Shown here: positions 1 to 58,873 of the stretch, in pieces
Numbering within the stretch: the first letter of the stretch is position 1
Layout: the number at the start of each line of letters is the position of its first letter
Source of the DNA: an uncultured Candidatus Saccharibacteria bacterium
Lineage (GTDB): Bacteria > Patescibacteriota > Minisyncoccia > JACQLN01
Assembly (NCBI GenBank): GCA_964526375.1
Contig: CAZGLK010000001.1
Coordinates: forward strand, 4,811 to 68,810
Direction: 5' to 3'
Length of the DNA: 64,000 nt
The notes under the pieces: generated by a model
What the model was told of the DNA's origin: nothing
Seen by the model: only the letters and a program-made list of their open reading frames with translations
Databases searched by the model: none
Made by a program: the position numbers and the translations under genes

Positions 1-2
1 GA

Positions 3-185
3 AAGAAAAGAAACTGGTTGAGGATAAACTTGGTTGCGGCTAACTACAGTCAGCTGCAAAAAAGTGTTTGGTTGGGTTATAACCCTTTGCCTGAAAGTTT
101 TATAAAATTTCTTGACGAGTTAAGGCTGAAAAATAAAGTTCATATCGTCAGTGTCAATAAATCAGGCACGATTGAGGAAGTTTAG
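3..185 (+). CDS. 3'-terminal fragment of an upstream ORF, truncated by the window edge; no recognisable family
   Basis: Open frame from the window start to TAG at 183-185 (…NKSGTIEEV*); shorter than the ORF-track cutoff. Confidence 0.25.
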   Translation, partial: KKRNWLRINLVAANYSQLQKSVWLGYNPLPESFIKFLDELRLKNKVHIVSVNKSGTIEEV

Positions 186-223
186 ATAAAATTTTTGCGT
201 TATCTGCGTTTGCCATTATTATT

Positions 224-269
224 TATTGTTTCCACCAACTAGACGATCGTCCAAGGCAAGGAAACAATA
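224..269. repeat. 46-nt stem-loop repeat, copy A
   Basis: Perfect 10-bp stem TATTGTTTCC/GGAAACAATA enclosing a 26-nt loop with the palindromic core AGACGATCGTC; two more copies in the window share the same architecture. Confidence 0.6.
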
Positions 270-323
270 GCCGCTGACGAGTTTTTGGTAGTTTAGTAAA
301 AGGACAATAGACTGTTTATCTTT

Positions 324-371
324 CTATTGTTTCCTTACCGTAAACGATCGTCTGATAGAGGGAAACAATAG
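324..371. repeat. 46-nt stem-loop repeat, copy B
   Basis: 11-bp stem CTATTGTTTCC/GGAAACAATAG with a 26-nt loop containing AACGATCGTCT. Confidence 0.6.
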
Positions 372-545
372 CACTTTTTAACTACTCTCAAAAACCCGCA
401 TAAAAGCTGGGTTTTTGTGGGGTTGACAGGCATTTAATAATTTGCTAGCATAAAAGAGTTCTTTTCGTATAAATCCACAAGAAAAGCCGCCCTCAGCTAC
501 TTTTCCGCTCTAAGACTATCTAACTTAAAATTCGAGAGGTTTAAG

Positions 546-995
546 ATGAGGCTCGATCAGGATATCAATTTTAATCTGGGAGGAGTGCCGATGGTGATGA
601 GACTTGATACCACGGCGCCAGAAAATGTGTGGATTATTACGCCGAAATGTCAAGAAGACATGGGAGACTCTTTCGCTAACGCCATTAAGAAATGCATCGG
701 CTTTCCTCATCAATTGTTCTCGTTTGGATTTGATGAGGCTGATGTCTACGTTGCTTTAGTGGCGGATGACCAGGCCGTTGTAATATATGGTGGAGATGAG
801 CCCGGTGCTTCTATGGCCTGTAACATTTTCGCCAGTTTGCCAGATTGGAGCGGCGAAAGTCTAAAGGGGCTCAGGGGAGCGGGAGAGTTTGTTGATTTTC
901 TCTCACTTCTTAAAGAGCATGCTGGAATCGAAGTATTTCGACGCAGCGATGGGGAGGTGATTGATTACACAAGCGCTCTTTTACTCTTACGATGA
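546..995 (+). CDS. hypothetical protein (149 aa)
   Basis: ORF with a GAGAGG Shine-Dalgarno 7-8 nt upstream of ATG; no family recognised. Confidence 0.5.
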   Translation: MRLDQDINFNLGGVPMVMRLDTTAPENVWIITPKCQEDMGDSFANAIKKCIGFPHQLFSFGFDEADVYVALVADDQAVVIYGGDEPGASMACNIFASLPDWSGESLKGLRGAGEFVDFLSLLKEHAGIEVFRRSDGEVIDYTSALLLLR

Positions 996-1109
996 GGAGC
1001 CCATTGAATTCTCTCAGATGTTTGATGATTTAGAGGATTCAAAGCTTTTTTGAATCCCATAAAGCCAAAACGGTCGTTAAAAAAATGAACAGCCTGACCA
1101 GCTGTTTTT

Positions 1110-1673
1110 TTATTCCTCGGTTGCTCGTCGAGTATACTCACTTGTTCTGGTATCTACTTCAATAAAATCGCCGGCTTCCACAAAAAGCGGAGTTTTAACC
1201 GTAATGCCGGTTTCTAAAAGAACATCTTTTAAGCCGCCTTGAACGGTGTCGCCTTTTAAGCCGGGCGGAGCATCTTTTACGCGCAGAACAACTTTTATGG
1301 GCAGCTCCAGGCTAATGGGCTGGCCGTTAAAAATAAGAACTTCACACGGCAAATCTTTTTTTAAGTAGCCGGTTTTTTCTTGCAGCAAATCTTGAGCCAA
1401 GCCAAATTTCTCTCCGCCGTCGGTTTGAAAGAAAAATTCGTCCCTGGTGCGATAAGCAAACTTGGCCTTGAGGCGCTCAATGTCGGCCTCGTCAACCTTA
1501 TCGGATTGCTGAAAAGTTTCGGCGCGAACTTTGCCGCTGATCAAGTGGCGGATTTTGGTTTGCATCACCGGCCGTCTTTGGGCCACCTTATTGTGATGAG
1601 CTTCCAGAACTTGATAAGGCTCGCCCTCCAGTTCAATCAAAACGCCGGGTTTTAGGTTGTTCATTGAAAGCAT
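1110..1673 (-). CDS. efp: translation elongation factor P
   Basis: Colinear with EF-P (…NGQPISLELP…PGLKGDT…GG…LETG…VKTPLFVEAGDFIEVDTRTSEY…). The start is taken at the internal Met (MLSMNNLKPG; MNN at 1664 also possible); the ORF-track start at 1724 lies in the repeat-rich upstream region. Confidence 0.85.
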   Translation of the reverse strand: MLSMNNLKPGVLIELEGEPYQVLEAHHNKVAQRRPVMQTKIRHLISGKVRAETFQQSDKVDEADIERLKAKFAYRTRDEFFFQTDGGEKFGLAQDLLQEKTGYLKKDLPCEVLIFNGQPISLELPIKVVLRVKDAPPGLKGDTVQGGLKDVLLETGITVKTPLFVEAGDFIEVDTRTSEYTRRATEE

Positions 1674-1689
1674 AATGCGATGCCAATCA

Positions 1690-1779
1690 ACGAATGACAT
1701 GCGAATTATGCGAATAGAATCCATTCAAATCAAATAAAAAATTCGTATCATTCGCACGAATTCGCATATTAGCATCGCG
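1690..1779. promoter_or_regulatory. divergent efp/comEC intergenic region carrying an inverted array of ATGCGAAT / ATTCGCAT units
   Basis: atgcgaattatgcgaata … attcgcacgaattcgcat arranged as an imperfect palindrome around ~1731; the same CGAAT unit family recurs upstream of other genes. Confidence 0.3.
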
Positions 1780-1798
1780 TTGAGTATACTAAATACTA

Positions 1799-2947
1799 AT
1801 GAGCTTATCAAGGGCGGCGGTTATCGGCGCGGTGGCGTTTATGGCGGGCGTGGCGGTTTATTCCGTGGCTGGTTTGCAGTGGTGGCTGGTGAGCGCGCTC
1901 GTGGGCGCGGTGGCGGTTTTGGGTGTGGTAGGCGCTCGGGTTAATGTAAAATATCTCGCGCCCATTTTTGTTGTTGTTTTGTCTTTGCTGGCTGGGCTGG
2001 TTTGGGGGGCCGTTTATCGGCCTCAACCGAAGCAGGAAAAAACTTTTTGGCAGGATGCGCGGGCGGCGTTAACGGCCAAGGCAGATAAAATTATGCCCCA
2101 ACCCGAGGCCGCGGTTTTTGACGGCATGGTTTTGGGCTACGATAAAAACATCCCCGCTTCTTTGAAAGACATTTACAACATTACCGGCACGCGGCATATT
2201 CTGGCCATATCGGGCATGAACATTTCCATTGTGTCCTTAATGCTGATGAGTTTTGGTTTGGCTCTCGGTTTGTGGCGGCGTCAGGCTTTTTGGCTGGCGC
2301 TCGCGGGCATAATCGCTTTTGTTCTTTTGGTAGGCAGTCCGCCTTCAGCTGTTAGGGCCGGCTTGATGGCCGGCATAGTTTTGTGGGCCAGAAACCACGG
2401 TCGGCTGTTCTTAGCTTGGCGGCCGCTGGTATTGGCCGCATTTTTTATGGTCTTGTTGAATCCGCGCCTCTTGATTTTTGACATTGGGTTTCAGCTTTCT
2501 TTTTTGGCGGTGGCCGGCATTTTATATTTTAAGAACTTTTGGGATCATGTTTTCGGCTGGCTGCCCGTAAAACTTGCCCGTGAGTTATTGTCGCTTTCGT
2601 TTGCGGCCCAAATTACCACTTGGCCCATTATTCTTTACAACTTCGGCACCTTTTCACTGGTCGGCCCCATAGCCAATATCTTTGTGGTGCCGCTTTTAAA
2701 CCCCATAATGCTTTTGGGTTTAGGATTTGCGATTTTTTCATGGTGGCCGATATTGTCCCAGGTGTTTTTGTGGCCAGCTTGGCTTATCTTGAAATTAGCC
2801 GACAAAGCCGTGGAATTTTTTGCTACCTTCCCTTGGGCCAGTTTGAACTTGGGCCAGCCGGGTTTGATCGTGCTCGCTTATTATCCTTTCCTGTTGTGGC
2901 TGTGGAAGTTTTTAGAAAGAAAGGGCTTGAACGAGGCGGTGCATTGA
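1799..2947 (+). CDS. comEC: ComEC/Rec2 competence-domain membrane protein (N-terminal half of a split ComEC)
   Basis: Polytopic membrane protein with the ComEC competence-domain signature (NITGTRHILAISGMNISIVSLML). Confidence 0.8.
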   Translation: MSLSRAAVIGAVAFMAGVAVYSVAGLQWWLVSALVGAVAVLGVVGARVNVKYLAPIFVVVLSLLAGLVWGAVYRPQPKQEKTFWQDARAALTAKADKIMPQPEAAVFDGMVLGYDKNIPASLKDIYNITGTRHILAISGMNISIVSLMLMSFGLALGLWRRQAFWLALAGIIAFVLLVGSPPSAVRAGLMAGIVLWARNHGRLFLAWRPLVLAAFFMVLLNPRLLIFDIGFQLSFLAVAGILYFKNFWDHVFGWLPVKLARELLSLSFAAQITTWPIILYNFGTFSLVGPIANIFVVPLLNPIMLLGLGFAIFSWWPILSQVFLWPAWLILKLADKAVEFFATFPWASLNLGQPGLIVLAYYPFLLWLWKFLERKGLNEAVH

Positions 2948-2974
2948 TATCGAGGTTGTGTATCCAGTTCATAA

Positions 2975-3085
2975 ACCGACCCGAACAATCCGAATTTTAC
3001 CCGAATGACCCGAACCAATTCGGATGAGATATTCGTTAAGTTCGGATTATTTCGCGTCATTCGGATGTATTCGTGGTTAGGGATC
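2975..3085. repeat. phased CCGAA(T)/ATTCGG heptamer array between the two ComEC halves
   Basis: cccgaacaatccgaattttacccgaatgacccgaaccaattcgg followed by the inverted ttcggatg…ttcgttaagttcggatt…cattcggatgtattcg; unit spacing is ~9-11 bp. Confidence 0.4.
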
Positions 3086-3092
3086 GCGTTTT

Positions 3093-3911
3093 ATGTGGTT
3101 GTCTAAAAAATTTGTCTTGGGGGTTTTGGCGTTTATTTTAATCTTGATTTCTTATGCCGTTTGGCAGAAGGGGAACCAGTCGCCGCGGCTGGTGTTTTTG
3201 AATGTGGGGCAGGGCGATGCCATGCTGGCCAGTTTGCCCGGCGACATTCAAATTTTGGTGGACGCCGGGCCGTCGGGCGAGTTGGCTTCTAAACTTTCCG
3301 GCTATTTGCCTTTTTACGATCGCGATATTGAACTGGCAATTTTAACCCATCCCCACGCCGATCACCTGCGGGGTTTTTTGGAGATATTCAAAAATTACAA
3401 TGTTAAAAATTTTATCTTTTCGGGTGCCAATTATTCCAGCCGGGTTTATGCCGATTTTATGGAGGCGTTAAGAAAAGAGGGCAGCGGTGTTTACTTGGCC
3501 GGAAAAGGTGATGTTGTCAGTTATCGGGGCAGACCGATATTGAGAATTTTTTCTCCCGATAAGGTTGAACTTGGGCGTGATTTCAAAAAAATTCACGAGG
3601 CCAACATTGTTAGCCAGCTGGAACTGGGCCATAGAAAATTTTTGCTGATGGGCGATGCCGAAGAAGATCTTGAATTGCGGCTCATCGCGTCAAAGACGAT
3701 TCAAGACGTGGACATTCTAAAAGTCGGCCACCACGGTTCTAAAACCTCCACCTCGGAAAAATTGCTCCAAGCCGCTCGTCCCGAAGAAGCCATCATCTCC
3801 GTCGGCCGCAACTCCTACGGCCACCCCAACCCCGGTGTCCTGGATCGCCTGCATCAAACCGGAGCCAAAGTTTTTAGGACGGATCAGGTGGGGGATGTGG
3901 TTTATAGGTAG
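3093..3911 (+). CDS. comEC: ComEC C-terminal metallo-beta-lactamase domain protein (second half of split ComEC)
   Basis: N-terminal TM helix then MBL motifs LTHPHADHLRG and KVGHHGSKTS. Confidence 0.8.
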   Translation: MWLSKKFVLGVLAFILILISYAVWQKGNQSPRLVFLNVGQGDAMLASLPGDIQILVDAGPSGELASKLSGYLPFYDRDIELAILTHPHADHLRGFLEIFKNYNVKNFIFSGANYSSRVYADFMEALRKEGSGVYLAGKGDVVSYRGRPILRIFSPDKVELGRDFKKIHEANIVSQLELGHRKFLLMGDAEEDLELRLIASKTIQDVDILKVGHHGSKTSTSEKLLQAARPEEAIISVGRNSYGHPNPGVLDRLHQTGAKVFRTDQVGDVVYR

Positions 3912-3947
3912 AAGTTAGAATCTAGAAGTTAGAAAATAGAATATCTT

Positions 3948-4012
3948 TTGGAGACCGAATCTCCAAAAATTGTAATCCCGGAGTTTCTGTTTTGGAGACT
4001 TAGTCTCCAAAA
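3948..4012. repeat. 65-bp direct repeat R1 (copy 1) with two internal hairpins
   Basis: ttggagaccgaatctccaaaaattgtaatcccggagtttctgttttggagacttagtctccaaaa; identical to 4789-4853; contains hairpins GGAGAccgaaTCTCC and GGAGACttaGTCTCC. Confidence 0.7.
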
Positions 4013-4016
4013 TTGG

Positions 4017-4048
4017 GCTCCCGGTGAAAAACATCGGGGGCTTTTTTT
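4017..4048 (+). terminator. rho-independent terminator T1 (copy 1)
   Basis: gctCCCGGTGaaaaaCATCGGGGgcttttttt: 7-bp stem (one G·U), 5-nt loop, U-run; duplicated at 5831-5860. Confidence 0.6.
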
Positions 4049-4077
4049 ATTTTTGAAATTAAGCTAGGATAACAGCA

Positions 4078-4416
4078 ATGAGGTTGGAGCATCAATCAGC
4101 TGAAGAATTAAAAAAGGAAATCTTGGGAATTACGGGTAAATATCTTGATTTAACCAAGTACCGGCTTTTCTTTTTTGGCTCGCGGGTGGCGGGTGATGGT
4201 GATGAGCATTCCGATGTGGATGTGGGTATTGATGGCATTGAGCCACTCCCGCCCGGGGCTATTTCGAGTATTCAGCAGGAACTGGACGATTTGAATACAC
4301 TCTATAAGATACAGGCTGTTGATTTCCAAAAAGTCTCGGAGGATTTTCGCAGGGTTGCCCTGAGCAAGGTAGAGATAATCAATCAACAAGATGAGCAAGC
4401 TAACAGCGGTGATTAA
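4078..4416 (+). CDS. minimal nucleotidyltransferase (MNT) antitoxin-type protein
   Basis: Pol-beta-like NTase motif GSRVAG…SDVDVGI; its 3' end overlaps the downstream HEPN gene. Confidence 0.75.
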   Translation: MRLEHQSAEELKKEILGITGKYLDLTKYRLFFFGSRVAGDGDEHSDVDVGIDGIEPLPPGAISSIQQELDDLNTLYKIQAVDFQKVSEDFRRVALSKVEIINQQDEQANSGD

Positions 4417-4768
4417 ACAATTTGAACAGGCTCTAAGCCGCTTGGACGAGGTTTTGAAAGAACCCAAGACCGATATAGTTAGAGATTCGGCTATAAAGAG
4501 ATTTGAGATTGTTTTTGATCTGTCTTGGAAGGCGGTCAAGGTTTTTTTGGAAGAGAAGAAGGGCATAGTTTGCCGCTCTCCGAAGGAATGTTTTCGTTCG
4601 GCTTATCAGGAGAAGCTGTTGGAGTACGACAATTTCTGGCTGGAGCTGACTGATAGTAGAAACGACATTGTGCATGTATACGGTGAATCGGAGGCGGAGA
4701 AAGTTTATGGAATTTTGCCCGAAGCCCTGCTTAGATTTAAGGAGTTGTTGGGTGCTCTCAAATCGTAG
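4391..4768 (+). CDS. HEPN-domain (nucleotidyltransferase substrate-binding, HI0074-like) toxin-type protein
   Basis: About 125 aa and helical; the overlap (4391-4416) with the MNT gene is typical of MNT-HEPN toxin-antitoxin pairs. Confidence 0.7.
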   Translation: MSKLTAVIKQFEQALSRLDEVLKEPKTDIVRDSAIKRFEIVFDLSWKAVKVFLEEKKGIVCRSPKECFRSAYQEKLLEYDNFWLELTDSRNDIVHVYGESEAEKVYGILPEALLRFKELLGALKS

Positions 4769-4788
4769 GCGGATATTCCGGTCTCGAT

Positions 4789-4853
4789 TTGGAGACCGAA
4801 TCTCCAAAAATTGTAATCCCGGAGTTTCTGTTTTGGAGACTTAGTCTCCAAAA
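4789..4853. repeat. 65-bp direct repeat R1 (copy 2)
   Basis: Identical to 3948-4012 up to …tctccaaaa, then diverges. Confidence 0.7.
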
Positions 4854-4859
4854 ATATCG

Positions 4860-5825
4860 TTGTTATCTCGGCGATGTATCTAAGTCTGCCTAAGCTTAGT
4901 TTGGGAATGGAATAGCAATTGCTTTGGGTTAGGTTAGGTTAGACCAACAAGGTCGGGTGTTTATAACTTGTCCTTGCGCATTTTTTCAATTGGGTATAAG
5001 GTTAAAATAATGTAATGTGATGAAAGTTCTTTAAATTTTGTAGGATGCGTCTGCACTGCGTCCGCCATCCGGAGTTTCCGTGCCACGGAGCTACCGGGTA
5101 ATCAACGGGGTCGATTTTGGTACATCCAATTAAGGAGGTTACCATGTTAGCGCCGCGGAATCGTGGCCGACCTCTTCTGAACAGCTCTAATTCTGTTTCC
5201 GTTCAGGAGAGTTAAGCGTCGACTGCCGGGCGGGCGGGAAACAGCGCCAATGCTAACTGGGAGAATGAGATAAACCGGGGTTCGGGGTGTCGGCTGAGGG
5301 GAGAGGTTATCAGCGACAGCCAGGGGATGAAATTGCCGGCGAGGCAGTTCTTCAAAAAATATCTGCTTCGATGATCAATGTTGTCCGGCGGGCGCGCGTC
5401 TGCCGTGTCAGTAACGGGGAGATGCGCGTTCGCCATTTAGTCTCGCTCCGGAACTTAATCAAATCGCCCGCGCCAAAATTGGCAGCGACGAATTTTGAAA
5501 AAGCTCTGGCTTCAACCGCAAGTTGAGGGCATAATAAGGAGGATCCAAATATGATTGCCCACAACAATCCCGTGCACACGGCCACGCGCGCTTCTCCCTC
5601 TCCGATCACAGGGAACGCAAGTGGTCACAGCGCCGTCGGTCAGAATCAGAACAGCTCCTCGGAAAACTAGTCGGAGATGCGTTAAGGCATATCTGATTGT
5701 GGGCCGACAGCTATCAAAAAAGGTATGCGGCGCTAGAGTCGCGTTTTGTCTCGGTGCACTAAGGAGCGACCGAGCTCCAAAATGCGGCGGCTGACGCAAA
5801 TGTAAGCCATCGAGATTCAACCTCG
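4860..5825. other. GC-rich orphan segment without a long ORF (possible structured RNA, small-peptide locus or decayed foreign DNA)
   Basis: GC visibly higher than flanks; only short overlapping ORFs in all six frames. Two mini-ORFs have perfect AAGGAGG Shine-Dalgarno sequences (ATG 5144, 23 aa; ATG 5551, 39 aa). The segment is bracketed by repeat R1' and terminator copy T1'. Confidence 0.3.
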
Positions 5826-5830
5826 ATAGA

Positions 5831-5860
5831 GCTCCCGGTGAAAAACATCGGGGGCTTTTT
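5831..5860 (+). terminator. rho-independent terminator T1 (copy 2)
   Basis: gctcccggtgaaaaacatcgggggcttttt, identical to 4017-4046. Confidence 0.6.
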
Positions 5861-6104
5861 ATTTGTTATTTGTAGCAATATTGCAGAGTCTTCGGATATT
5901 TCTGTTTCAGGCGATCGCTGGAAATAGAAATATCTGCTGATAGCCGATAGATGTCGATAGATGCTGATGGATTTGGGTTAGAAGTACCTCTTTTTTTATT
6001 CCGGCAGATACGTTAGACTGACAAAACGCAAATTGACGCGGATGATGACCCTGCTTCGCTAGTCAGCTGCGCAGGACACGGCGCGGATTCGCGCGGATAA
6101 TAAT

Positions 6105-7175
6105 ATGACAAAAGGGTTTCCTATTTTTAAAACAAGAATTAAGGGGGTGAATCAAGTTTTTAAACTGGAAGATCCGGTAGATCGCCAAAAGTATTTCCGG
6201 CTTAAGGCCGGGCGGGAAATAGCAAAAATACGCGGCTACCTAAAGAAAAACACTTTTGTTGGTTTTCTTTTGGGCAAGAAAAATTCGGGTAAGGGCACTT
6301 ACGCTAAGTTGTTTATGGAGGCAATTGGCTCAGCCCGCCTTGCTCACATTTCCATTGGCGACATCGTGCGCGGCGTTCACAAAGATTTGAATGATAGGAA
6401 AAGAAAGAAAGATCTGGTTGAGTTTTTAAGGCGCCGTTATCGCGGGCCGATTACCATTGAAAGCGCCTTGGAGATAATCTTGGGCCGGGACACCAAAGGC
6501 CTCTTGCCCACGGAAGTCATATTAGCTTTGGTGGAGCGCGAAATTGACAAGCTGGCCGGCAAAGCCGTTTTTATAGACGGTTTCCCGCGCGATCTGGACC
6601 AAATATCTTACTCGCTTTATTTTAGGGCCTTGATGGGTTACCGCGACGACCCCGATTTTTTTGTTTTTATAGATGTGCCTGAAAGCATCATAGACGAGCG
6701 CATGAAATATCGGGTGGTTTGCCCGTTGTGTCAGACCCCGCGCAATATGCGGGTCCATGCCACCAAAGAGGTGGATTATGATTCCGGCGCCAAAAAGTTT
6801 TACTTGCTGTGCGACAACCCCGGCTGCGGCAAAAAAAGAATGACGGCCAAAGAGGGCGATGAGTTGGGCATTGAGGCTATTCGCTCGCGCATAGAAATAG
6901 ACGATAAAGTTATGAAAACTCTGCTGAACTTTAACGGCATAGACAAAATATATTTGCGCAATTCTGTGCCGGTCAAAACGGCCAAGAGGTATGTGGATGA
7001 CTATGAAATTACGCCGGCTTATCGGTACGAGTGGGACAAAAATGTCAGTAAAGTTAGGATCGTAGAAGAGCCCTGGGTGGTTAAAGACGGCGCCGGAGAA
7101 AAATCTTACAGCTTACTGCCGCCGGCTGTAGTTGTGTCTTTGATTAGGCAAGTGGCCAAGGTTTTATCCTTGTAG
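6105..7175 (+). CDS. adenylate kinase family protein, divergent and extended (356 aa)
   Basis: P-loop GKKNSGKGT, ISIGDIVRG (cf. STGDMLRA), IDGFPRDLDQ (cf. LDGFPRTIPQ), a zinc LID CPLC…C..GC and RSRIE. The N-terminal ~50 aa and C-terminal ~120 aa extensions have no Adk counterpart. Confidence 0.65.
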   Translation: MTKGFPIFKTRIKGVNQVFKLEDPVDRQKYFRLKAGREIAKIRGYLKKNTFVGFLLGKKNSGKGTYAKLFMEAIGSARLAHISIGDIVRGVHKDLNDRKRKKDLVEFLRRRYRGPITIESALEIILGRDTKGLLPTEVILALVEREIDKLAGKAVFIDGFPRDLDQISYSLYFRALMGYRDDPDFFVFIDVPESIIDERMKYRVVCPLCQTPRNMRVHATKEVDYDSGAKKFYLLCDNPGCGKKRMTAKEGDELGIEAIRSRIEIDDKVMKTLLNFNGIDKIYLRNSVPVKTAKRYVDDYEITPAYRYEWDKNVSKVRIVEEPWVVKDGAGEKSYSLLPPAVVVSLIRQVAKVLSL

Positions 7176-7255
7176 ATGGTCAGCTTCCCACATATGTGGA
7201 TAAATGGTTGTTGACTTTTTGATCTATGGTGCTACACCGAAAGCAAGATAAAAAA

Positions 7256-7284
7256 CCCCAGACTTCAAATCTGGGGCTTTTTAT
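7256..7284 (+). terminator. rho-independent terminator
   Basis: CCCCAGActtcaaaTCTGGGGcttttta directly after the adk-like gene. Confidence 0.7.
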
Positions 7285-7339
7285 GCTGGCTACGAAATAC
7301 GACGTAAAGTCGCGTGGCGACCACGTCGCTTTACGCGAA

Positions 7340-7378
7340 TTGTTACGAATATACGAATATGAAATCAAGTGGTATAAT
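7340..7378 (+). promoter_or_regulatory. candidate nth promoter: tandem TACGAAT units plus an extended -10 (TGgTATAAT)
   Basis: ttacgaatatacgaatatgaaatcaagTGgTATAAT, with the -10 at 7373-7378, 20 nt upstream of the nth ATG; the 18-mer tacgaatatacgaatatg recurs at 12576-12593. Confidence 0.4.
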
Positions 7379-7397
7379 TTTAAAAGAGGGAATTTGT

Positions 7398-8111
7398 ATG
7401 TCTAATGTTGTGGCAATAAATCCAAAACTCAAAATCCAAAATCCTAAGCAAATCCCAATGACCAAAATCCAAAACAAATCCCGCGGTGAGGGTTTAGAAG
7501 AGAAAAAGTCTCGGGCGAGCAAGGTTATTGCCTACTTAAAGAAAAAATTTCCCGGTGCCAAAATAGCCCTGAAGTACGGCAACCCAATCCAATTATTAGT
7601 GTCGGTTGTATTATCGGCTCAATGCACCGACAAAAAAGTCAACGAGGTTACGGCGGAGCTGTTTAAGAAATACAAAACAGGGGCTGATTTTGCCGAAGCG
7701 AACACAAAAAAATTTGAGCGGGAAGTAAAGCCCTGCGGGTTTTACCGCAATAAGGCCAAAAATATTATCGCCGCTTGTAAAATCATCCAAGACAAATTCA
7801 AAGGCAAACTGCCGCGAACGATGGCCGAGATGTTAACTTTGCCGGGCGTGGCCCGCAAAACCGCCAATGTGGTTTTGGGCAATGCCTTTGGTGTGGTGGA
7901 GGGGATTGCGGTGGATACGCACATGATCCGCATCAATCAGAAGCTTGGTTTTTCTACCAGTACCGACCCCAAAAAAATTGAGAGGGATCTTATGCAGATT
8001 ATTCCTAAAAAGGATTGGTTTAAATACACCTATTTAATAATTGACTACGGCCGCCAGGTTTGCCCGGCGCGGCATAAAAAATGTGAGTGCGGGATTTATA
8101 AAATTAAATAG
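7398..8111 (+). CDS. nth: endonuclease III (DNA glycosylase/AP lyase)
   Basis: HhH-GPD motifs LVSVVLSAQCTD and LPGVARKTANVV, DTHMIRI, and a C-terminal [4Fe-4S] cluster C-x6-C-x2-C-x5-C. The start is chosen at MSNVV with an AGAGGG RBS; the ORF-track start at 7314 lies inside the promoter repeats. Confidence 0.85.
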   Translation: MSNVVAINPKLKIQNPKQIPMTKIQNKSRGEGLEEKKSRASKVIAYLKKKFPGAKIALKYGNPIQLLVSVVLSAQCTDKKVNEVTAELFKKYKTGADFAEANTKKFEREVKPCGFYRNKAKNIIAACKIIQDKFKGKLPRTMAEMLTLPGVARKTANVVLGNAFGVVEGIAVDTHMIRINQKLGFSTSTDPKKIERDLMQIIPKKDWFKYTYLIIDYGRQVCPARHKKCECGIYKIK

Positions 8112-8127
8112 GATTCGTCTGATAACG

Positions 8128-8168
8128 CGATCCGAAAAATCCGAATACATCCGAATGACCCGAATAGA
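8128..8168. repeat. four phased direct repeats of (A/C)TCCGAA(T)
   Basis: atccgaaaa atccgaatac atccgaatg acccgaatag with ~10-bp periodicity, immediately 5' of / overlapping the next ORF start. Confidence 0.4.
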
Positions 8169-9294
8169 ATTCAAAAAATTGATGGCCATATTTTTGGTTT
8201 GCGTTTTGCTATTTGGTCTGGTCGGATTTGTGGAAGCAGGCAAAATTAAGGACATTAAAAAGCGCAGCCGCGCGTCTGTTTTTATTCCTCCGCAAAGCCG
8301 CCAAGAGATAATCCGGCCGGCTCGCAACGCCGTGTTTTTTAGTCCGCTGGAAACAATCATCACTTCGGGTCCGGCGAACAACAATTTTGTTCAAAGCACC
8401 AGTGTTGAGTTTGTTTTGGACGGCTGGCAGATAGTGCCTTTTAAAAAAACCAATCGTTTTGAGGTTTGGCTGTTTGGCCTGGACGCTGGCTGGCGCGAGG
8501 CCGGGGAGAGAATAAGCTATAACCTGCCGCCCGGCAAGCGGCTTTATACTTTTATGGCCCGGGCCAAAAACGAAGCCGGCGAGACGGATCGCACCGCCGC
8601 GGTTAGAAATTTTTATACTTTCACCTCGCCCTATTACGGCAAGATTGACATTACTGCCGTGGACGGCCGCGGTTCTTTTGACAAGCCGCAGTATGAGCGC
8701 GTCACTTTGTACGCTCGTAATCTGGCCGGCCCCGTTAATGTTAGCGGCTGGCGGCTGGCTACCCGCCGCAAGAGTTTTTCGTTTGCAATCCCTTCGGCGG
8801 CGCGGTTGTTTGATCCCGCCAATCTTATCGGCATAGAGCCGATCAAACTCTCGTCTGGAGATTCGCTGAATGTTTTTGTGGGCAAGGCAAGCCCGGTGGG
8901 AAGCGGTTTTCAGGAGAATGGCTGTATGGGCTATTTGCGGTCGGGTTTTGAAGGTTACGATGCTCTGGCCGGCGGCGGCAGTTGCTCGGCTGTCAGCCCT
9001 TCCGTGTATAGCAGTTACAGCGTTGACTGCCGCCGGTTCTTAAACGGCTTGAGCGCTTGCGCCAGCGTGAACTTGGAGCCGTGGCAATTCGGGGCCGATC
9101 CCGCTTGCCGTGATTTTATAGTTAGAAATTACAATTACGCCGCTTGCGTGGAGCGCGGCAAAAACCAAGCCAACTTTTTTACCGGCCGCTGGAGAATTTA
9201 TCTGGGCCAGAGCGATGAAATTCTGGATGATTTGGATGACACGGTTTATTTGTACGACGGGCAGGGGTTGTTGGTGGACATATACAGTTATTAG
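8155..9294 (+). CDS. secreted protein with a lamin-tail-like (LTD) segment and a Cys-rich C-terminus
   Basis: N-terminal signal/TM (MAIFLVCVLLFGLVGFVEA); YERVTLYARNLAGPVNVSGWRL resembles LTD; the start could also be 8182. Confidence 0.55.
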   Translation: MTRIEFKKLMAIFLVCVLLFGLVGFVEAGKIKDIKKRSRASVFIPPQSRQEIIRPARNAVFFSPLETIITSGPANNNFVQSTSVEFVLDGWQIVPFKKTNRFEVWLFGLDAGWREAGERISYNLPPGKRLYTFMARAKNEAGETDRTAAVRNFYTFTSPYYGKIDITAVDGRGSFDKPQYERVTLYARNLAGPVNVSGWRLATRRKSFSFAIPSAARLFDPANLIGIEPIKLSSGDSLNVFVGKASPVGSGFQENGCMGYLRSGFEGYDALAGGGSCSAVSPSVYSSYSVDCRRFLNGLSACASVNLEPWQFGADPACRDFIVRNYNYAACVERGKNQANFFTGRWRIYLGQSDEILDDLDDTVYLYDGQGLLVDIYSY

Positions 9295-9708: not shown

Positions 9709-9754
9709 TATTGTTTCCTCTTCCCAGACGATCGTCTGTGGGATGGAAACAATA
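9709..9754. repeat. 46-nt stem-loop repeat, copy C
   Basis: 10-bp stem TATTGTTTCC/GGAAACAATA and a 26-nt loop with AGACGATCGTC; same architecture as copies A and B. Confidence 0.6.
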
Positions 9755-9872
9755 TCAAAGTCGCTTACAAATCATCGCTGGAAGAAATTTTTAGCGGGAT
9801 TCTTGCAAAGGAACAAATAAAAATCCGCCCCGATGCGCGCATCGGGGCGGGGGAGGAGGGAAGGAACTTGCT

Positions 9873-43675: not shown

Positions 43676-43900
43676 ATGAGTATCGTCGAAGAGGTTTTGT
43701 GTAAAGTTATGGGGGTTGGGTCTGTTTCGGACAGCACCTCTCTCAAGGACATAGCCAGTTGGGATTCTTTTAATAGTTTGGTTTTGCTTAACGAGCTGGA
43801 GAGCCAATTTGAAGTTAGGTTTACTTTGGATGAGGCCACGAGCTTTAATAGCGTGGCTGACATTAAACGAATCCTCCAGCAACGCGGCATTAAGGTCTAA
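43676..43900 (+). CDS. acyl/peptidyl carrier protein, paralog 1 of 3
   Basis: 74 aa, phosphopantetheine Ser in the SWDSFNSL motif; paralogs at 55457 and 58643. Confidence 0.7.
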   Translation: MSIVEEVLCKVMGVGSVSDSTSLKDIASWDSFNSLVLLNELESQFEVRFTLDEATSFNSVADIKRILQQRGIKV

Positions 43901-55456: not shown

Positions 55457-55687
55457 ATGGACAGGTTAGAAAATTTAATAGCTAGGGTTTTGAATGTTGA
55501 ACCCACCGCGGTAAACGACAACACCAGCCCCGATAATGTGGAAAGCTGGGATTCTTTTAGCAGTTTAATTTTGGTTACGGAACTGGAAAAGAATTTTAAA
55601 GTTAAGTTTAGTTTGGAAGAGGTTGTTCTGGTTAAAAATGTGGGGGACATTAAAAAAGCCTTAAGGAATCATGGCGTGAAAGTATGA
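55457..55687 (+). CDS. acyl carrier protein, paralog 2 of 3
   Basis: 76 aa, SWDSFSSL motif. Confidence 0.7.
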   Translation: MDRLENLIARVLNVEPTAVNDNTSPDNVESWDSFSSLILVTELEKNFKVKFSLEEVVLVKNVGDIKKALRNHGVKV

Positions 55688-58642: not shown

Positions 58643-58873
58643 ATGAAGCAGAAACTCGAGAAAATTTTAGGGAAAGTTTTTGGAGTAAATCCAAAGAGAA
58701 TCACAGACAAAACAAGTCCAGAAAACTTGCCCAGTTGGGATTCTTTTAACGGTTTGGTTTTGGTGCGGGAGCTGGAAAAGAATTTCAATATTAAGTTGGA
58801 TGTTGAAGAGATGGCTAAGATCAAAAGAGTGGCGGATATAAGAAGATTACTGAAACGTTACGGCCGTCTTTAG
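58643..58873 (+). CDS. acyl carrier protein, paralog 3 of 3
   Basis: 76 aa, SWDSFNGL motif. Confidence 0.7.
   Translation: MKQKLEKILGKVFGVNPKRITDKTSPENLPSWDSFNGLVLVRELEKNFNIKLDVEEMAKIKRVADIRRLLKRYGRL

What the first reader, a model, noticed from the sequence alone, without database searches (positions are those of the whole stretch)
3912..6104. Toxin-antitoxin cassette bracketed by 65-bp direct repeats and a duplicated terminator, followed by a GC-rich orphan segment
Seen in sequence: the order is ComEC-MBL stop, R1 (3948-4012), T1 (4017-4048), MNT+HEPN (4078-4768), R1' (4789-4853), ~970 bp GC-rich DNA (4860-5825), then T1' (5831-5860). R1 and R1' are identical over 65 bp and each carries two hairpins. 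T1 and T1' are identical over 30 bp. The pattern looks like an ancestral R1-T1 terminator region split by insertion(s) that brought in an MNT/HEPN module and foreign-composition DNA. Such a footprint is expected for a small integrative element or a repeat-mediated cassette, with MNT/HEPN a common addiction/defence cargo.
Basis: partly seen in the sequence, partly recalled or inferred. Interest (0 to 1): 0.6.

Follow-up and report, generated by a model that had tools for sequence, protein, structure and literature searches.

The report
Toxin-antitoxin cassette in a repeat-flanked hotspot
In one groundwater Parcubacteria lineage, about 2 kb of extra DNA (an intact MNT/HEPN toxin-antitoxin pair plus 0.9 kb of orphan non-coding DNA) sits in a gene spacer that holds different small cassettes in related genomes. 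It is bracketed by copies of the local terminator and by a small palindromic repeat that also occurs in many unrelated metagenome contigs, so the locus is real and mildly interesting but is not a new kind of system.

Summary
The repeats are real. R1 (3947-4012) equals R1' (4788-4853) over 66/66 nt. T1 (4017-4046) equals T1' (5831-5860) over 30/30 nt. Neither occurs elsewhere in the 64 kb.

The nearest relatives keep ComEC-MBL next to the ADK-like gene with spacers of 184-522 bp. They have no MNT/HEPN, no R1 and no G. The window's 2193-bp spacer is therefore a lineage-specific expansion.

T1 is native. Relatives at 76-77% ADK identity carry it after the MBL gene. In L186 the same terminator-promoter module is followed, at the same distance, by the start codon of a different small gene (DUF2283). 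L185 holds four other small ORFs in this spacer. The spacer is a cassette hotspot framed by copies of a terminator/promoter module.

R1 folds like a REPIN. Its 23-nt palindrome TTTTGGAGAC-TTA-GTCTCCAAAA recurs in about 10 unrelated metagenome lineages. In two of them it lies next to a Y1 (IS200/RAYT-like) transposase gene or a fragment of one. In another it lies in repeats that bracket HicAB/RelE cassettes.

MNT/HEPN is an ordinary, intact member of the HI0073/HI0074 family.

G has no homolog anywhere I searched and no long ORF. Its composition is native-like, not foreign. It holds two short ORFs with strong ribosome-binding sites.

The mechanism of insertion is unresolved. No recombinase gene was found in the locus.

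The parts
3093..3911 (+). ComEC metallo-beta-lactamase domain gene (left flank, conserved)
   Evidence: Pfam Lactamase_B 57 bits. It is syntenic with the ADK-like gene in relatives.
3909..3946 (+). About 2.5 tandem copies of a 14-mer (TAGAAGTTAGAATC) that start at the MBL stop codon
   Evidence: the repeat finder family D9 and direct reading of the sequence.
3947..4012 (.). R1: 66-nt doublet of two perfect palindromes (3946-3968 and 3990-4012) separated by 21 nt; REPIN-like
   Evidence: 100% identical to 4788-4853. As a single strand the MFE structure is one long hairpin that pairs palindrome A with palindrome B, z = -6.0 together with T1. Absent from all relatives.
4017..4050 (+). T1: intrinsic terminator of the comEC operon (12-bp stem plus T-run)
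   Evidence: Terminator scan. 30/30 identical to 5831-5860. Homologous terminators follow MBL in L009-L011 (27/30) and occur in L186.
4041..4077 (+). Putative promoter built on the T1 T-tract (CTTTTTTTATT, 13 nt, TAGGAT), then 7 nt to the MNT ATG; leaderless-type start with no Shine-Dalgarno sequence
   Evidence: Inference from sequence. w4016-4066 matches L186 287-336 at 44/50, and there the same module precedes the ATG of a DUF2283 gene at the same distance. The ADK promoters of the window, L003 and L006 have the same layout.
4078..4416 (+). MNT (minimal nucleotidyltransferase) antitoxin gene, 112 aa
   Evidence: Pfam Polbeta 36.1 bits against a cutoff of 26.9. NCBIfam MntA 36.1 bits, below the equivalog cutoff of 60. 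The GS...DxD motif is visible in GSRVAGDGDEHSDVDV.
4391..4768 (+). HEPN toxin gene (HI0074 family), 125 aa, overlapping MNT by 26 nt
   Evidence: TIGR01987 75.7 bits against a cutoff of 55.8. Pfam NTase_sub_bind 87 bits. R90-x4-H95 is invariant in 12 homologs. Nearest homologs are at most 65% identical.
4788..4853 (.). R1': second identical copy of the palindrome doublet
   Evidence: The Logan contig L061 ends 30 nt inside it, as expected for a repeat in a k=31 assembly graph.
4854..4908 (+). X': native spacer block with hairpin GCCTAAGC-TTA-GTTTGGG
   Evidence: 74.6% identical over 63 nt to L006 2517-2579, which in L006 directly abuts the ADK promoter block.
4909..5825 (+). G: orphan segment. 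AT-rich 5' part with a TAGGAT box (5041-5046), then a GC-richer body with two short ORFs behind TAAGGAGG sites: 5144-5215 (23 aa) and 5551-5670 (39 aa)
   Evidence: No stop-free run longer than 104 codons, the lowest 3.6% of windows. No hit in Rfam, Pfam, PHROGs or PADLOC. No match in phages, plasmids, IMG/VR, JGI metagenomes or 56 related loci. sORF2 has no homolog among 1.84 billion representative proteins. Two of the window's 21 AGGAGG sites lie here.
5808..5830 (+). Native pre-terminator hairpin ATCGAG-N7-CTCGAT
   Evidence: Aligns with the hairpin that precedes the T1-like terminator in L186. It is a folded hairpin.
5831..5864 (+). T1': second copy of the terminator, ending the G unit
5895..5934 (.). 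GCGATCGC-centred palindrome (native type)
   Evidence: Inverted repeat I9. CGATCG-centred palindromes occupy this spacer in L003, L006 and L009 and occur at w224-271, w325-372 and w9709-9756.
5987..6020 (+). ADK-like gene promoter block (CTCTTTTTTTATTCC, 11 nt, TAGACT)
   Evidence: 30/34 identical to L006 2582-2615. The same layout occurs in L003. Its function as a promoter is inferred.
6105..7175 (+). ADK-like nucleoside monophosphate kinase gene (right flank, conserved)
   Evidence: Pfam ADK. 3874 homologs, with conserved synteny.

Best explanation
The ComEC(MBL)-ADK spacer of this Parcubacteria clade is a hotspot where small gene cassettes sit between copies of a native terminator-promoter module. 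The module is a hairpin, a T-tract and a -10 box. In the window's lineage the spacer has grown from a few hundred bp to 2193 bp. It now holds two transcription units in series.

Unit 1 is an intact MNT/HEPN toxin-antitoxin pair of the HI0073/HI0074 family. The HEPN protein is an Rx4H RNase-type toxin and the nucleotidyltransferase neutralises it. The pair is probably transcribed as a leaderless mRNA from the promoter formed by the T-tract of terminator T1.

Unit 2 is G. It has an AT-rich promoter-like 5' part, about 0.8 kb without a real ORF but with two short ORFs behind strong ribosome-binding sites, and the second terminator copy T1' at its end. G is most likely an orphan or eroding second cassette.

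T1 and T1' are copies of the native module. They insulate the cargo: one stops comEC transcription and restarts it for the cassette, the other stops transcription again before the ADK-like gene. They also supply the homology that lets cassettes be gained or lost by recombination.

R1 and R1' are two copies of a 66-nt REPIN-like palindrome doublet. Its core belongs to a dispersed family associated elsewhere with Y1 (HUH) transposase genes and with toxin-antitoxin cassettes. R1 probably came in with the cargo, or transposed here, rather than being ancestral.

Shown: the insertion, the native origin of T1, the hotspot, the intact toxin-antitoxin motifs, and the dispersal of the palindrome. Inferred: the promoters, the recombination route, R1 mobility, and the nature of G.
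For: Empty sites. Relatives at 86-87% ADK identity (L003, L006) and at 77% (L009-L011) have MBL-ADK spacers of 184, 522 and 265 bp by the called genes (193, 531 and 274 by tblastn extrapolation). They have no MNT/HEPN, R1 or G.

Hotspot. L185 (77%) has an 1835-bp spacer with four unrelated small ORFs. L186 (76%) has a 70-aa ORF, a T1-like terminator and a DUF2283 gene upstream of ADK.

Native module. w4016-4066 matches L186 287-336 at 44/50, and in both an ATG of a different gene follows at the same distance. L186 repeats the module in degenerate form at 590-638 in front of ADK. L009 has T1 at 4772-4801 plus a degenerate copy that forms the ADK promoter. L185 has a 26-nt direct repeat 1275 bp apart. 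Deleting between T1 and T1' would leave a 379-bp spacer, inside the relatives' range (arithmetic). The homolog cassette in L064 is likewise framed by a 27-nt terminator repeat (93%) and by a truncated copy of the trmD 5' end.

Toxin-antitoxin pair. TIGR01987 above cutoff, Rx4H invariant, 26-nt gene overlap.

R1. It folds as one long hairpin. Its core palindrome with the inner C..G pair occurs in 33 of 102 distinct metagenome contexts, where about 6% is expected. The exact TTA/TAA loop occurs in 15, where about 1 is expected, and the flanks are unrelated. It lies next to a Y1_Tnp gene in the L086 group and next to an N-terminal fragment of that gene in L179. It lies inside 133-300-nt repeats that bracket HicAB/RelE cassettes in L108 and L130.

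G. It looks non-coding, has no homolog, has native-like composition, and carries two TAAGGAGG-ATG starts.
Against: No recombinase, integrase or transposase gene was found in the locus, and tblastn found no Y1 transposase in the 64-kb window. No excised or empty form of this exact genome was observed. The interleaved order R1-T1-TA-R1'-X'-G-T1' needs at least two events or a donor that already carried R1...T1, and I could not reconstruct the order of events. No relative closer than 87% exists in the databases searched. X', a native block that abuts the ADK promoter in L006, lies inside the T1-bounded segment, which sits awkwardly with a single T1-to-T1' insertion. R1 has only two copies in 64 kb, so its mobility within this genome is not shown. 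The promoters are read from sequence only, and the consensus scan did not pick them up. The structure signal in G is weak: local z-scores are only slightly below background and show no strand bias.
Confidence: 0.55

Rival explanations
1. R1...R1' delimit a non-autonomous IS200/IS605-type element (a 'PATE') of about 0.9 kb that carries MNT/HEPN as passenger. The two identical hairpin-bearing ends, in direct orientation, would be the left and right ends recognised on single-stranded DNA by a Y1 HUH transposase encoded elsewhere. The element would move by peel-and-paste transposition, and G and T1' would be unrelated neighbours.
For: The identity of R1 and R1' begins and ends within 1 nt of the outer edges of the palindromes, as expected for a discrete element end rather than a random segmental duplication. 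The same core palindrome sits 19 nt and 9 nt upstream of a Y1_Tnp gene, or a fragment of it, in two other lineages, and also occurs inside that gene. It flanks other toxin-antitoxin cassettes in L108 and L130. R1 is absent from relatives and from the rest of the window, whereas the native palindromes are of the CGATCG type.
Against: No second copy of the R1-TA-R1' unit is known: exact look-ups of MNT and HEPN return only this locus, and the nearest HEPN homologs are at most 65% identical. No Y1 transposase is in the window. No conserved flanking tetranucleotide is seen next to the palindromes in other lineages. T1, which lies inside the proposed element, is native to this site in relatives. 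Known IS200/IS605 ends are imperfect hairpins rather than perfect 10-3-10 palindromes (from memory).
Confidence: 0.15
2. The 1814-bp T1-to-T1' block is what remains of a small site-specific integrative element that targeted the terminator (attB lying within T1). T1 and T1' would be attL and attR. The integrase gene has decayed, and G is its wreck.
For: A 30-nt identical core with flanks that diverge quickly (42 nt at 88%, then about 60%) resembles attL/attR. Empty sites exist in relatives. G is non-coding-like but has two good translation starts, as eroded genes would. The HEPN-homolog cassette of L064 lies next to a truncated copy of the target gene's 5' end at 70% identity, a classic signature of integration.
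Against: No frame of G gives any residual similarity to integrases or to anything else in Pfam, PHROGs or PADLOC, even at permissive E-values. G is too short (0.9 kb) for a typical tyrosine or serine recombinase gene plus cargo. Diverged copies of the T1 module already exist in 'empty' relatives such as L009, so the duplication need not mark an integration event.
Confidence: 0.15
3. G is a functional gene in its own right: an RNA of about 0.8 kb that runs from about 5050 to T1'. It would act as a structured RNA and/or encode two micro-proteins of 23 and 39 aa.
For: The 996-nt fold gives z = -4.45 on the + strand, based on 20 shuffles. G has a TAGGAT box like the one in front of MNT, a terminator at its end, and two TAAGGAGG sites 5 and 8 nt before an ATG. 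The whole window, both strands, has only 21 AGGAGG sites.
Against: The - strand folds nearly as well (z = -3.70). Local 150-nt z-scores average only -1.3 against -0.65 for background, with no strand asymmetry. There is no Rfam hit. No homolog of the DNA or of sORF2 was found anywhere, so conservation and covariation cannot be tested.
Confidence: 0.25
4. The arrangement is an assembly artefact: a mis-join across the 66-nt repeat. The real genome would be MBL-R1-G-T1'-ADK, with the R1-T1-MNT-HEPN piece belonging elsewhere or to another strain.
For: The NCBI assembly of the same population breaks exactly at the end of R1 (4012) and resumes at 4023, and the Logan contigs also break between 3908 and 4084. 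The 4013-4022 join is seen only in the window.
Against: A 66-nt repeat is shorter than standard reads, so it can be spanned. All contigs are 100% identical to the window and consistent with it. L001 and L057 carry T1-MNT-HEPN-R1'-G-T1'-ADK in one piece, so the toxin-antitoxin pair is physically linked to this locus. Contig ends at the edges of a repeat are what a de Bruijn graph produces for a true two-copy repeat.
Confidence: 0.04

Closest known systems
HI0073/HI0074-type MNT-HEPN toxin-antitoxin pairs (type VII HepT/MntA class)
   Same: Two small overlapping genes with the nucleotidyltransferase first. The HEPN protein carries the Rx4H motif and scores above the TIGR01987 cutoff. Pfam Polbeta and NTase_sub_bind both hit.
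   Different: Both proteins score below the NCBIfam HepT and MntA equivalog cutoffs (26 and 36 bits against 60). The nearest relatives are at most 65% identical. The start is leaderless-type with no Shine-Dalgarno sequence. No activity has been tested.
REP / REPIN elements mobilised by RAYT (Y1 HUH) transposases
   Same: R1 is a short extragenic palindrome doublet that folds into one long hairpin. [quoted passage not shown] The core palindrome is found beside a Y1_Tnp gene in other lineages and in tandem clusters resembling BIMEs in L109 and L114.
   Different: The palindromes are perfect 10-3-10 units, not imperfect ones. Only two copies occur in 64 kb, and no RAYT gene is in the window. The identical 23-mer occurs across many unrelated lineages, whereas REPIN-RAYT systems are described as mostly vertically inherited (bioRxiv 10.1101/2022.05.22.493013, abstract seen). 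The palindrome also occurs inside the transposase coding sequence.
IS200/IS605-family elements and their transposase-less derivatives (PATEs)
   Same: Hairpin-bearing ends in direct orientation flank a passenger segment. There are no terminal inverted repeats in the classical sense. A Y1 transposase is associated with the same hairpin elsewhere.
   Different: There is no tnpA or tnpB. No second copy exists. No conserved target or cleavage tetranucleotide was found. A native terminator lies inside the would-be element.
Integron gene cassettes (attC-bounded, often toxin-antitoxin pairs in chromosomal arrays)
   Same: Small, promoter-poor cassettes, often toxin-antitoxin pairs, lie in series and are separated by conserved hairpin-forming repeats. 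In L108 and L130 successive cassettes share near-identical inter-cassette modules.
   Different: R1 and T1 lack the attC architecture: there is no R''/L''...L'/R' layout and no GTTRRRY core on either strand (read). No integron integrase was seen. The cassettes here carry their own promoter-like module.
Minimal mobile elements of Neisseria and pdif modules of Acinetobacter plasmids (from memory, not checked in a paper here)
   Same: A fixed site between conserved genes, or between short recombination sites, holds different small cargo in different strains, toxin-antitoxin pairs included. No recombinase lies in the module.
   Different: R1 palindromes have 3-5 nt centres, not the 6-nt centre of Xer sites. 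The locus is not at a GC-skew switch. The bracketing repeats here are terminator/promoter modules.

Membership tests
MNT/HEPN toxin-antitoxin pair (HI0073/HI0074; type VII HepT/MntA class) | HEPN protein with a conserved Rx4-6H motif | tested here: met
   R90-NDIV-H95. R90, N91 and H95 are invariant in an alignment with 11 homologs.
MNT/HEPN toxin-antitoxin pair (HI0073/HI0074; type VII HepT/MntA class) | HEPN protein scores above the family model's curated cutoff | tested here: met
   TIGR01987 HI0074 75.7 bits against 55.8. Pfam NTase_sub_bind 87 bits against 31.8.
MNT/HEPN toxin-antitoxin pair (HI0073/HI0074; type VII HepT/MntA class) | Membership of the characterised HepT/MntA equivalogs | tested here: not met
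   NF047751 HepT 26.3 bits and NF047752 MntA 36.1 bits, both below the cutoff of 60. The pair belongs to the wider family, not to the characterised subgroup.
MNT/HEPN toxin-antitoxin pair (HI0073/HI0074; type VII HepT/MntA class) | Adjacent, co-oriented MNT gene with a nucleotidyltransferase fold and the GS...DxD motif | tested here: met
   Pfam Polbeta 36.1 bits against 26.9. The motif is visible in GSRVAGDGDEHSDVDV. The genes overlap by 26 nt.
MNT/HEPN toxin-antitoxin pair (HI0073/HI0074; type VII HepT/MntA class) | Toxicity of HEPN and its neutralisation by MNT | not testable with these tools
   Needs expression experiments.
REP/REPIN-RAYT system | Two palindromic units in inverted orientation, with a spacer, that fold into one hairpin | tested here: met
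   Arms 3946-3968 and 3990-4012 are 87% complementary (I4). The MFE structure is one long hairpin.
REP/REPIN-RAYT system | Many dispersed extragenic copies within one genome | tested here: inconclusive
   Only the two copies occur in the 64-kb window. The rest of the genome could not be read.
REP/REPIN-RAYT system | A single-copy RAYT (Y1 transposase) gene flanked by the repeat in the same genome | tested here: inconclusive
   None in the window (tblastn). In the L086 group the palindrome lies upstream of and inside a Y1_Tnp gene (PF01797, 28.2 bits against a cutoff of 23). In L179 it precedes a 41-aa fragment of that gene.
REP/REPIN-RAYT system | Lineage-specific repeat sequence that is vertically inherited | tested here: not met
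   The identical 23-mer occurs in about 10 lineages with unrelated flanks and 30-46% GC. It is absent from the closest relatives.
IS200/IS605 element or PATE | Similar hairpins at both ends in direct orientation | tested here: met
   R1 and R1' are 66/66 identical and in the same orientation.
IS200/IS605 element or PATE | tnpA and/or tnpB in the element, or other copies of the element in the genome | tested here: not met
   The only genes between the repeats are MNT and HEPN. Exact look-ups find no other location.
IS200/IS605 element or PATE | Conserved target or cleavage tetranucleotide next to the ends | tested here: inconclusive
   No conserved flank was seen next to 17 palindrome occurrences. 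The true element ends are unknown.
Integron cassette array | attC sites (R''-L''...L'-R' with a GTTRRRY core) and an integron integrase | tested here: not met
   No such core occurs in R1 or T1 on either strand (read). No integrase was seen among the ORFs of 1-9000.
Xer-dependent element (IMEX / dif module) | dif-like 11-6-11 sites; the chromosomal dif lies at the GC-skew switch | tested here: not met
   The palindromes have 3-5 nt centres. GC skew is uniformly positive across the window, with no switch near 4 kb.
Site-specific integrative element | Direct repeats (attL/attR) at both ends and an empty site in relatives | tested here: met
   T1 and T1' are 30/30 identical. The spacers of L003, L006 and L009 lack the cargo.
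Site-specific integrative element | Integrase gene in the element | tested here: not met
   No ORF or frame between 4047 and 5860 hits any recombinase model.

The most novel reading that the evidence does not exclude
Small-genome CPR bacteria may run an integrase-less, integron-like cassette platform. Toxin-antitoxin and other mini-cassettes would be stored between conserved hairpin modules: R1-type 10-3-10 palindromes and terminator/promoter units. The cassettes would be shuffled as single-stranded DNA by a trans-acting Y1 HUH (RAYT/IS200-like) transposase, possibly during ComEC-dependent DNA uptake. The window's R1-TA-R1' unit and the L108/L130 arrays would then be two instances of the same machinery.
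Probability: 0.12. Interest if true: 0.75.

Novelty: new variant of a known kind. Interest (0 to 1): 0.4.

Why it matters
The toxin-antitoxin pair itself is routine. The value lies in the comparative picture. A deeply syntenic gene pair in Parcubacteria (ComEC-MBL and an ADK-like kinase) is separated by a spacer that turns over small cassettes in different lineages: MNT/HEPN, DUF2283 and orphan ORFs. Each cassette is framed by copies of a terminator-promoter module. This gives a concrete, testable example of how very small, recombinase-poor CPR genomes acquire and insulate accessory genes.

The by-product may be more useful. A 23-nt perfect palindrome is shared by about ten unrelated uncultured lineages. 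It sits beside Y1 transposase genes in some and frames toxin-antitoxin cassettes in others. My two literature searches turned up no description of REP/RAYT-type elements in Patescibacteria. If the link holds, it would extend that system to a new part of the tree and tie it to cassette mobility.

Tried and rejected
Known RNA family for R1-T1 or for G: Rfam found only two tRNAs in the window at gathering thresholds. The permissive scan of 3900-6150 gave only sub-threshold terminator-shaped matches (best trpB, 34.9 bits against 59) and nothing credible in G.

G as phage or plasmid DNA: no blastn hit in either collection.

G as a decayed known gene: 16 stop-free translations in six frames gave no Pfam hit at E<=10, and no credible PHROGs or PADLOC hit. 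A composite six-frame query against 5.8 billion proteins gave nothing. That test is weak, because it did not even recover the spurious 74-aa ORF that I know is in the collection.

G elsewhere: six back-translated patterns found no relative in IMG/VR or in the JGI metagenomes. nhmmer and blastn found nothing in 56 related loci. sORF2 has no homolog among 1.84 billion representatives.

G as a strongly structured RNA: the whole-segment z-score looked good, but local z-scores are barely below background and are not strand-specific. A first, slower version of that script timed out.

Foreign composition of G: rejected.

R1 as chromosomal dif, or a Xer module: rejected by site geometry and by GC skew.

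R1 as attC: rejected by reading the sequence.

R1 as a frequent repeat within this window: rejected.

R1 palindrome in viral contigs: none.

Source of the toxin-antitoxin pair: the nearest HEPN homologs are at most 65% identical and lie in unrelated contexts. One of the two contexts checked (L064) shows a repeat-framed cassette, and the other (L062) does not.

A single-event reconstruction of R1-T1-TA-R1'-X'-G-T1': none fits without assuming a donor that already carried R1...G...T1. I left the order of events unresolved.

Full report
**1. The observation**

- R1 (3947-4012) and R1' (4788-4853) are identical over 66 nt.
- Each copy holds two perfect palindromes, TTTTGGAGA-CCGAA-TCTCCAAAA and TTTTGGAGAC-TTA-GTCTCCAAAA, separated by 21 nt.
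- T1 (4017-4046) and T1' (5831-5860) are identical over 30 nt, and similar over 42 nt at 88%.
- Both T1 copies are hairpins followed by a T-run and score as intrinsic terminators.
- Shuffled controls expect essentially no such matches, and neither repeat occurs elsewhere in the 64 kb.
- The genes are as stated: ComEC (1799-2947) and its MBL domain (3093-3911), MNT (4078-4416), HEPN (4391-4768) and an ADK-like kinase (6105-7175).

**2. Is the arrangement real?**

The same population was assembled independently several times, and every contig is 100% identical to the window.

- L058 (NCBI contig JACQLP010000049.1 of GCA_016204085.1) ends exactly at 4012, the last base of R1.
- L001 (NCBI contig JACQLP010000016.1) runs from 4023 to 7402.
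- Logan contig L057 covers 4084-6596 and L059 ends at 3908.
- L061 covers 4824-6318 and stops 30 nt inside R1'.
- L002 covers 5887-7184.

So MBL-R1 and T1-MNT-HEPN-R1'-G-T1'-ADK are each confirmed in one piece. Only the 10 nt that link R1 to T1 rest on the window alone. Contigs that end at the edges of a repeat are what a true two-copy repeat produces in an assembly graph. I put a mis-join at about 4%.

**3. Comparison with relatives**

The organism is a groundwater Parcubacteria (CPR) bacterium. Homologs of the ADK-like protein led to orthologous loci with the same gene order: PaaX-like, EF-P, ComEC, MBL, ADK-like, Nth, LTD protein.

| Relative (ADK identity) | MBL-ADK spacer (called genes) | Cargo in spacer |
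|---|---|---|
| L003 (87%) | 184 bp | none |
| L006 (86%) | 522 bp | none |
| L009-L011 (77%) | 265 bp | none |
| Window | 2193 bp | MNT/HEPN, R1, G |

Sources for the table are. None of 56 related loci contains MNT/HEPN, R1 or G by blastn, nhmmer or fuzzy pattern search. The extra DNA is therefore lineage-specific. The database holds no relative closer than 87%, so intermediate states cannot be seen.

**4. What is native and what is not**

*T1 is native.* L009-L011 carry GCCCTCGGTGAAAAACACCGGGGGCTTTTT (27/30) after the MBL gene. L186, a 76% relative, carries the terminator together with the sequence that follows it. Window 4016-4066 and L186 287-336 match at 44/50. In both genomes an ATG follows at the same distance. 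In the window it starts MNT; in L186 it starts a DUF2283 gene.

*The module looks like a terminator fused to a promoter.* Its layout is a T-tract, about 13 nt, then TAGGAT or TATTAT, then 7 nt and the ATG. The ADK promoters of the window, L003 and L006 have the same layout. I therefore read it as a terminator whose T-tract doubles as the upstream part of a promoter for a leaderless mRNA. This is inference from sequence only.

*The module is repeated in relatives too.*
- L186 has a degenerate second copy at 590-638, directly before ADK.
- L009 has T1 plus a degenerate copy that forms its ADK promoter.
- L185 has a 26-nt repeat 1275 bp apart around three of its four small ORFs.

*T1' has the ancestral context.* It keeps the native hairpin in front of it: 5808-5830 aligns with the corresponding hairpin of L186. 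T1 has palindrome B of R1 in that position instead.

*Other native pieces.* Block X' (4854-4908) and the ADK promoter block (5987-6020) are adjacent in L006, but 1078 bp apart in the window. The GCGATCGC-centred palindrome at 5895-5934 belongs to a family of CGATCG-centred palindromes. That family fills this spacer in L003, L006 and L009 and recurs at window 224-271, 325-372 and 9709-9756.

*R1 has no counterpart in any relative.*

**5. The spacer is a hotspot**

Two further relatives have different cargo in the same place.
- L185 (77%) has an 1835-bp spacer with four small ORFs that lack any Pfam match.
- L186 has a 70-aa ORF and a DUF2283 gene upstream of ADK.

Across more distant Parcubacteria the two genes stay neighbours, with gaps that range from nothing to a few kb.

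A similar framing occurs at another locus. In L064 the HEPN homolog (63% identical), its MNT partner and an 87-aa ORF lie between khpA and trmD. They are framed by a 27-nt terminator repeat (93%) and by a truncated copy of the trmD 5' end at 70% identity.

So cassettes framed by duplicated local terminator, promoter or gene-start sequence recur in these genomes.

**6. R1 belongs to a dispersed palindrome family**

As a single strand R1 folds into one long hairpin, in which palindrome A pairs with palindrome B. R1 and T1 together give z = -6.0. This is the REPIN architecture: two REPs in inverted orientation with a spacer (PMC3337134, abstract seen).

I scanned the JGI metagenome contigs for TTTTGGAGANNNNNTCTCCAAAA.
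- Of 102 distinct contexts, 33 have the inner C..G pair that extends the arms to 10 bp. About 6% is expected by chance.
- Fifteen have exactly the TTA/TAA loop, where about 1 is expected.
- These fall into about ten lineages, with 30-46% GC and unrelated flanks.
- Six of the 33 sit at the tip of a longer perfect hairpin.

Associations with genes:
- In the L086 group the palindrome lies 19 nt upstream of a 220-aa gene that passes the Pfam Y1_Tnp cutoff (28.2 bits against 23). The protein carries an HYH motif and a downstream tyrosine. The palindrome also lies inside that gene, where it encodes FGDLVSK.
- In L179 it lies 9 nt upstream of a 41-aa fragment of the same protein, 85% identical.
- In L108, L130, L089 and L094 it lies inside direct repeats of 133-300 nt (96-98% identical) that frame HicB/HicA and RelE/HigB-like cassettes. 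In L130 those cassettes also share near-identical promoter and terminator modules.

Negative results:
- IMG/VR has no copy of the palindrome.
- The window has no Y1 transposase gene.
- Two literature searches found no description of REP/RAYT elements in Patescibacteria.

I conclude that R1 is REPIN-like. Membership of the REP/RAYT family is not established. Copy number in this genome is unknown, no RAYT gene is in view, and sharing of the same 23-mer across lineages does not fit the vertical inheritance described for REPINs.

**7. The toxin-antitoxin pair**

- HEPN passes TIGR01987 (HI0074) at 75.7 bits against a cutoff of 55.8.
- It keeps R90-x4-H95, which is invariant among 12 aligned sequences.
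- MNT passes Pfam Polbeta and shows the GS...DxD motif.
- Both proteins fall below the NCBIfam HepT and MntA equivalog cutoffs.
- The nearest HEPN relatives are at most 65% identical and come from varied phyla.

This is an ordinary, apparently intact member of the wider MNT/HEPN family. By analogy with the named families, the HEPN RNase is held in check by the nucleotidyltransferase. That mechanism is not tested here.

**8. The orphan segment G (4909-5825)**

*Composition and coding.* GC is 0.515, the 91st percentile of equal-sized windows. The dinucleotide signature is ordinary (63rd percentile), so the DNA is not foreign by composition. The longest stop-free run is 104 codons, in the lowest 3.6% of windows, so G looks non-coding.

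*Homology.* Nothing matches it.
- No hit in Rfam, Pfam, PHROGs or PADLOC.
- No hit in phage or plasmid records.
- No relative in IMG/VR or the JGI metagenomes.
- No match in the related loci.
- No match in the protein collections.

*Structure.* The whole segment folds better than shuffles on both strands (z = -4.45 and -3.70 with 20 shuffles). Local 150-nt windows are only slightly below background (-1.3 against -0.65) and show no strand bias. The case for a structured RNA is weak.

*What does stand out.*
- An AT-rich 5' part carries a TAGGAT box (5041-5046) like the one before MNT.
- T1' lies at the 3' end.
- Two of the window's 21 AGGAGG sites lie here. Both read TAAGGAGG and lie 5 and 8 nt before an ATG, opening ORFs of 23 aa (5144-5215) and 39 aa (5551-5670).

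My best reading is a second small transcription unit: either micro-protein genes or the eroded remains of a two-gene cassette.

**9. Mechanism and its limits**

The order R1-T1-TA-R1'-X'-G-T1' interleaves two repeat pairs. One insertion with one target duplication cannot produce it.

- Deleting between T1 and T1' would leave a 379-bp spacer of native type. This makes the T1-bounded 1814 bp the best candidate for the gained block.
- That block, however, contains the native-looking X'.
- A Campbell-type crossover at T1 with a circle carrying TA-R1-X-G-T1 would give the observed order. So would separate events: cassette gain between module copies, plus REPIN-type spread of R1.

I cannot choose between these. 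No recombinase gene was found in the locus.

I therefore commit only to the general model, at confidence 0.55: a hotspot of cassettes between terminator/promoter modules, with gain and loss by recombination at those modules, and R1 as an imported or transposed REPIN-like element. The alternatives are a PATE-like transposon bounded by R1 (0.15), a decayed integrative element bounded by T1 (0.15) and an assembly artefact (0.04).

**10. Verdict**

It is wrong on three others: R1-T1 is not one ancestral unit, G is not of foreign composition, and nothing shows a self-contained integrative element.

The locus is a new variant of known phenomena rather than a new kind of system. The most interesting lead is the 23-nt palindrome family, with its links to Y1 transposases and to toxin-antitoxin cassettes in uncultured small-genome bacteria.

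Noticed in passing
L086 6838-7645 (also L104, L105, L115, L148); L179 1408-1562: A 220-aa Y1_Tnp (IS200/RAYT-like) gene has the exact R1 palindrome B 19 nt upstream of its start. A second copy lies about 100 nt further upstream. One copy inside the coding sequence encodes FGDLVSK, and a variant (TTTGGACAC-TCG-GTGTCCAAA) lies near the 3' end. L179 has the palindrome 9 nt before a 41-aa fragment of the same protein.
   Followed up: partly
L108 1-2200; L130 1-1826; L089; L094: These loci hold arrays of small toxin-antitoxin cassettes (HicB/HicA and RelE/HigB-like with an antitoxin). The cassettes share near-identical promoter (28 nt) and terminator (35 nt) modules. They are separated by 133-300-nt direct repeats that hold several different 10-3-10 palindromes, including R1 palindrome B.
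   Followed up: partly
window 224-271, 325-372, 9709-9756, 5895-5934; L003 3766-3799; L006 2290-2345 and 2420-2455; L009 4703-4733: A second, apparently native family of palindromes is centred on CGATCG/GCGATCGC. In the window its members have conserved outer arms (TATTGTTTCC...GGAAACAATA) and a variable middle. This family occupies the same ComEC-ADK spacer in relatives.
   Followed up: partly
window 21935-22133, 22531-22607, 23190-23224, 23336-23385, 23860-23909, 24237-24299, 7417-7474: Clusters of 7-nt tandem repeats occur in non-coding stretches. They include telomere-like CCCTAAA/CCCTATA runs and TTCCAAT/CTCCAAG runs. I have no explanation for them.
   Followed up: no
L001 1-138 (NCBI JACQLP010000016.1 end) = window 4067-4113 followed by 4023-4113: The NCBI contig end carries a 47-nt piece of the MNT start placed in front of the T1 3' half. 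This is what a 91-nt tandem duplication of 4023-4113 would look like. It could be an assembler end artefact or a real minor variant.
   Followed up: no
L064 3548-3641, 4741-4800, 4851-4943, 6370-7423: Truncated pseudo-copies of the trmD 5' end (70% identical to the real start) flank the inserted cassettes. GIY-YIG and LAGLIDADG homing-endonuclease ORFs lie just downstream.
   Followed up: partly
window 10963-10985: The perfect palindrome TGTTCCAAGC-TAA-GCTTGGAACA lies inside a 458-aa ORF on the minus strand. It resembles the hairpin of block X' (GCCTAAGC-TTA-GTTTGGG) and its counterpart in L006.
   Followed up: no
window 4041-4077, 5041-5046, 5989-6018; L003 3866-3900; L186 310-347: A recurrent promoter-like layout occurs in this clade: T-run plus ATT, about 13 nt, then TAGNNT or TATTAT. 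It is often fused to the T-tract of the preceding terminator. In two cases it lies 7 nt before an ATG with no Shine-Dalgarno sequence, suggesting leaderless mRNAs. AGGAGG is rare in the window: 21 sites on both strands, only 4 of them before ORFs of 60 codons or more.
   Followed up: partly
window 6105-7175 and homologs: The ADK-like protein is unusually long (356 aa) and carries a Cys-rich insert (CPLC...CDNPGC). It has thousands of CPR homologs, mostly annotated only as nucleoside monophosphate kinase. It stays next to the ComEC MBL gene across Parcubacteria.
   Followed up: no
window 43730-43868, 55517-55655, 58706-58844; 39069-39123, 45596-45650, 53100-53143: Diverged repeats of 29-139 nt (66-76% identity) recur kilobases apart in the second half of the window. 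They are probably paralogous coding segments. I did not examine them.
   Followed up: no
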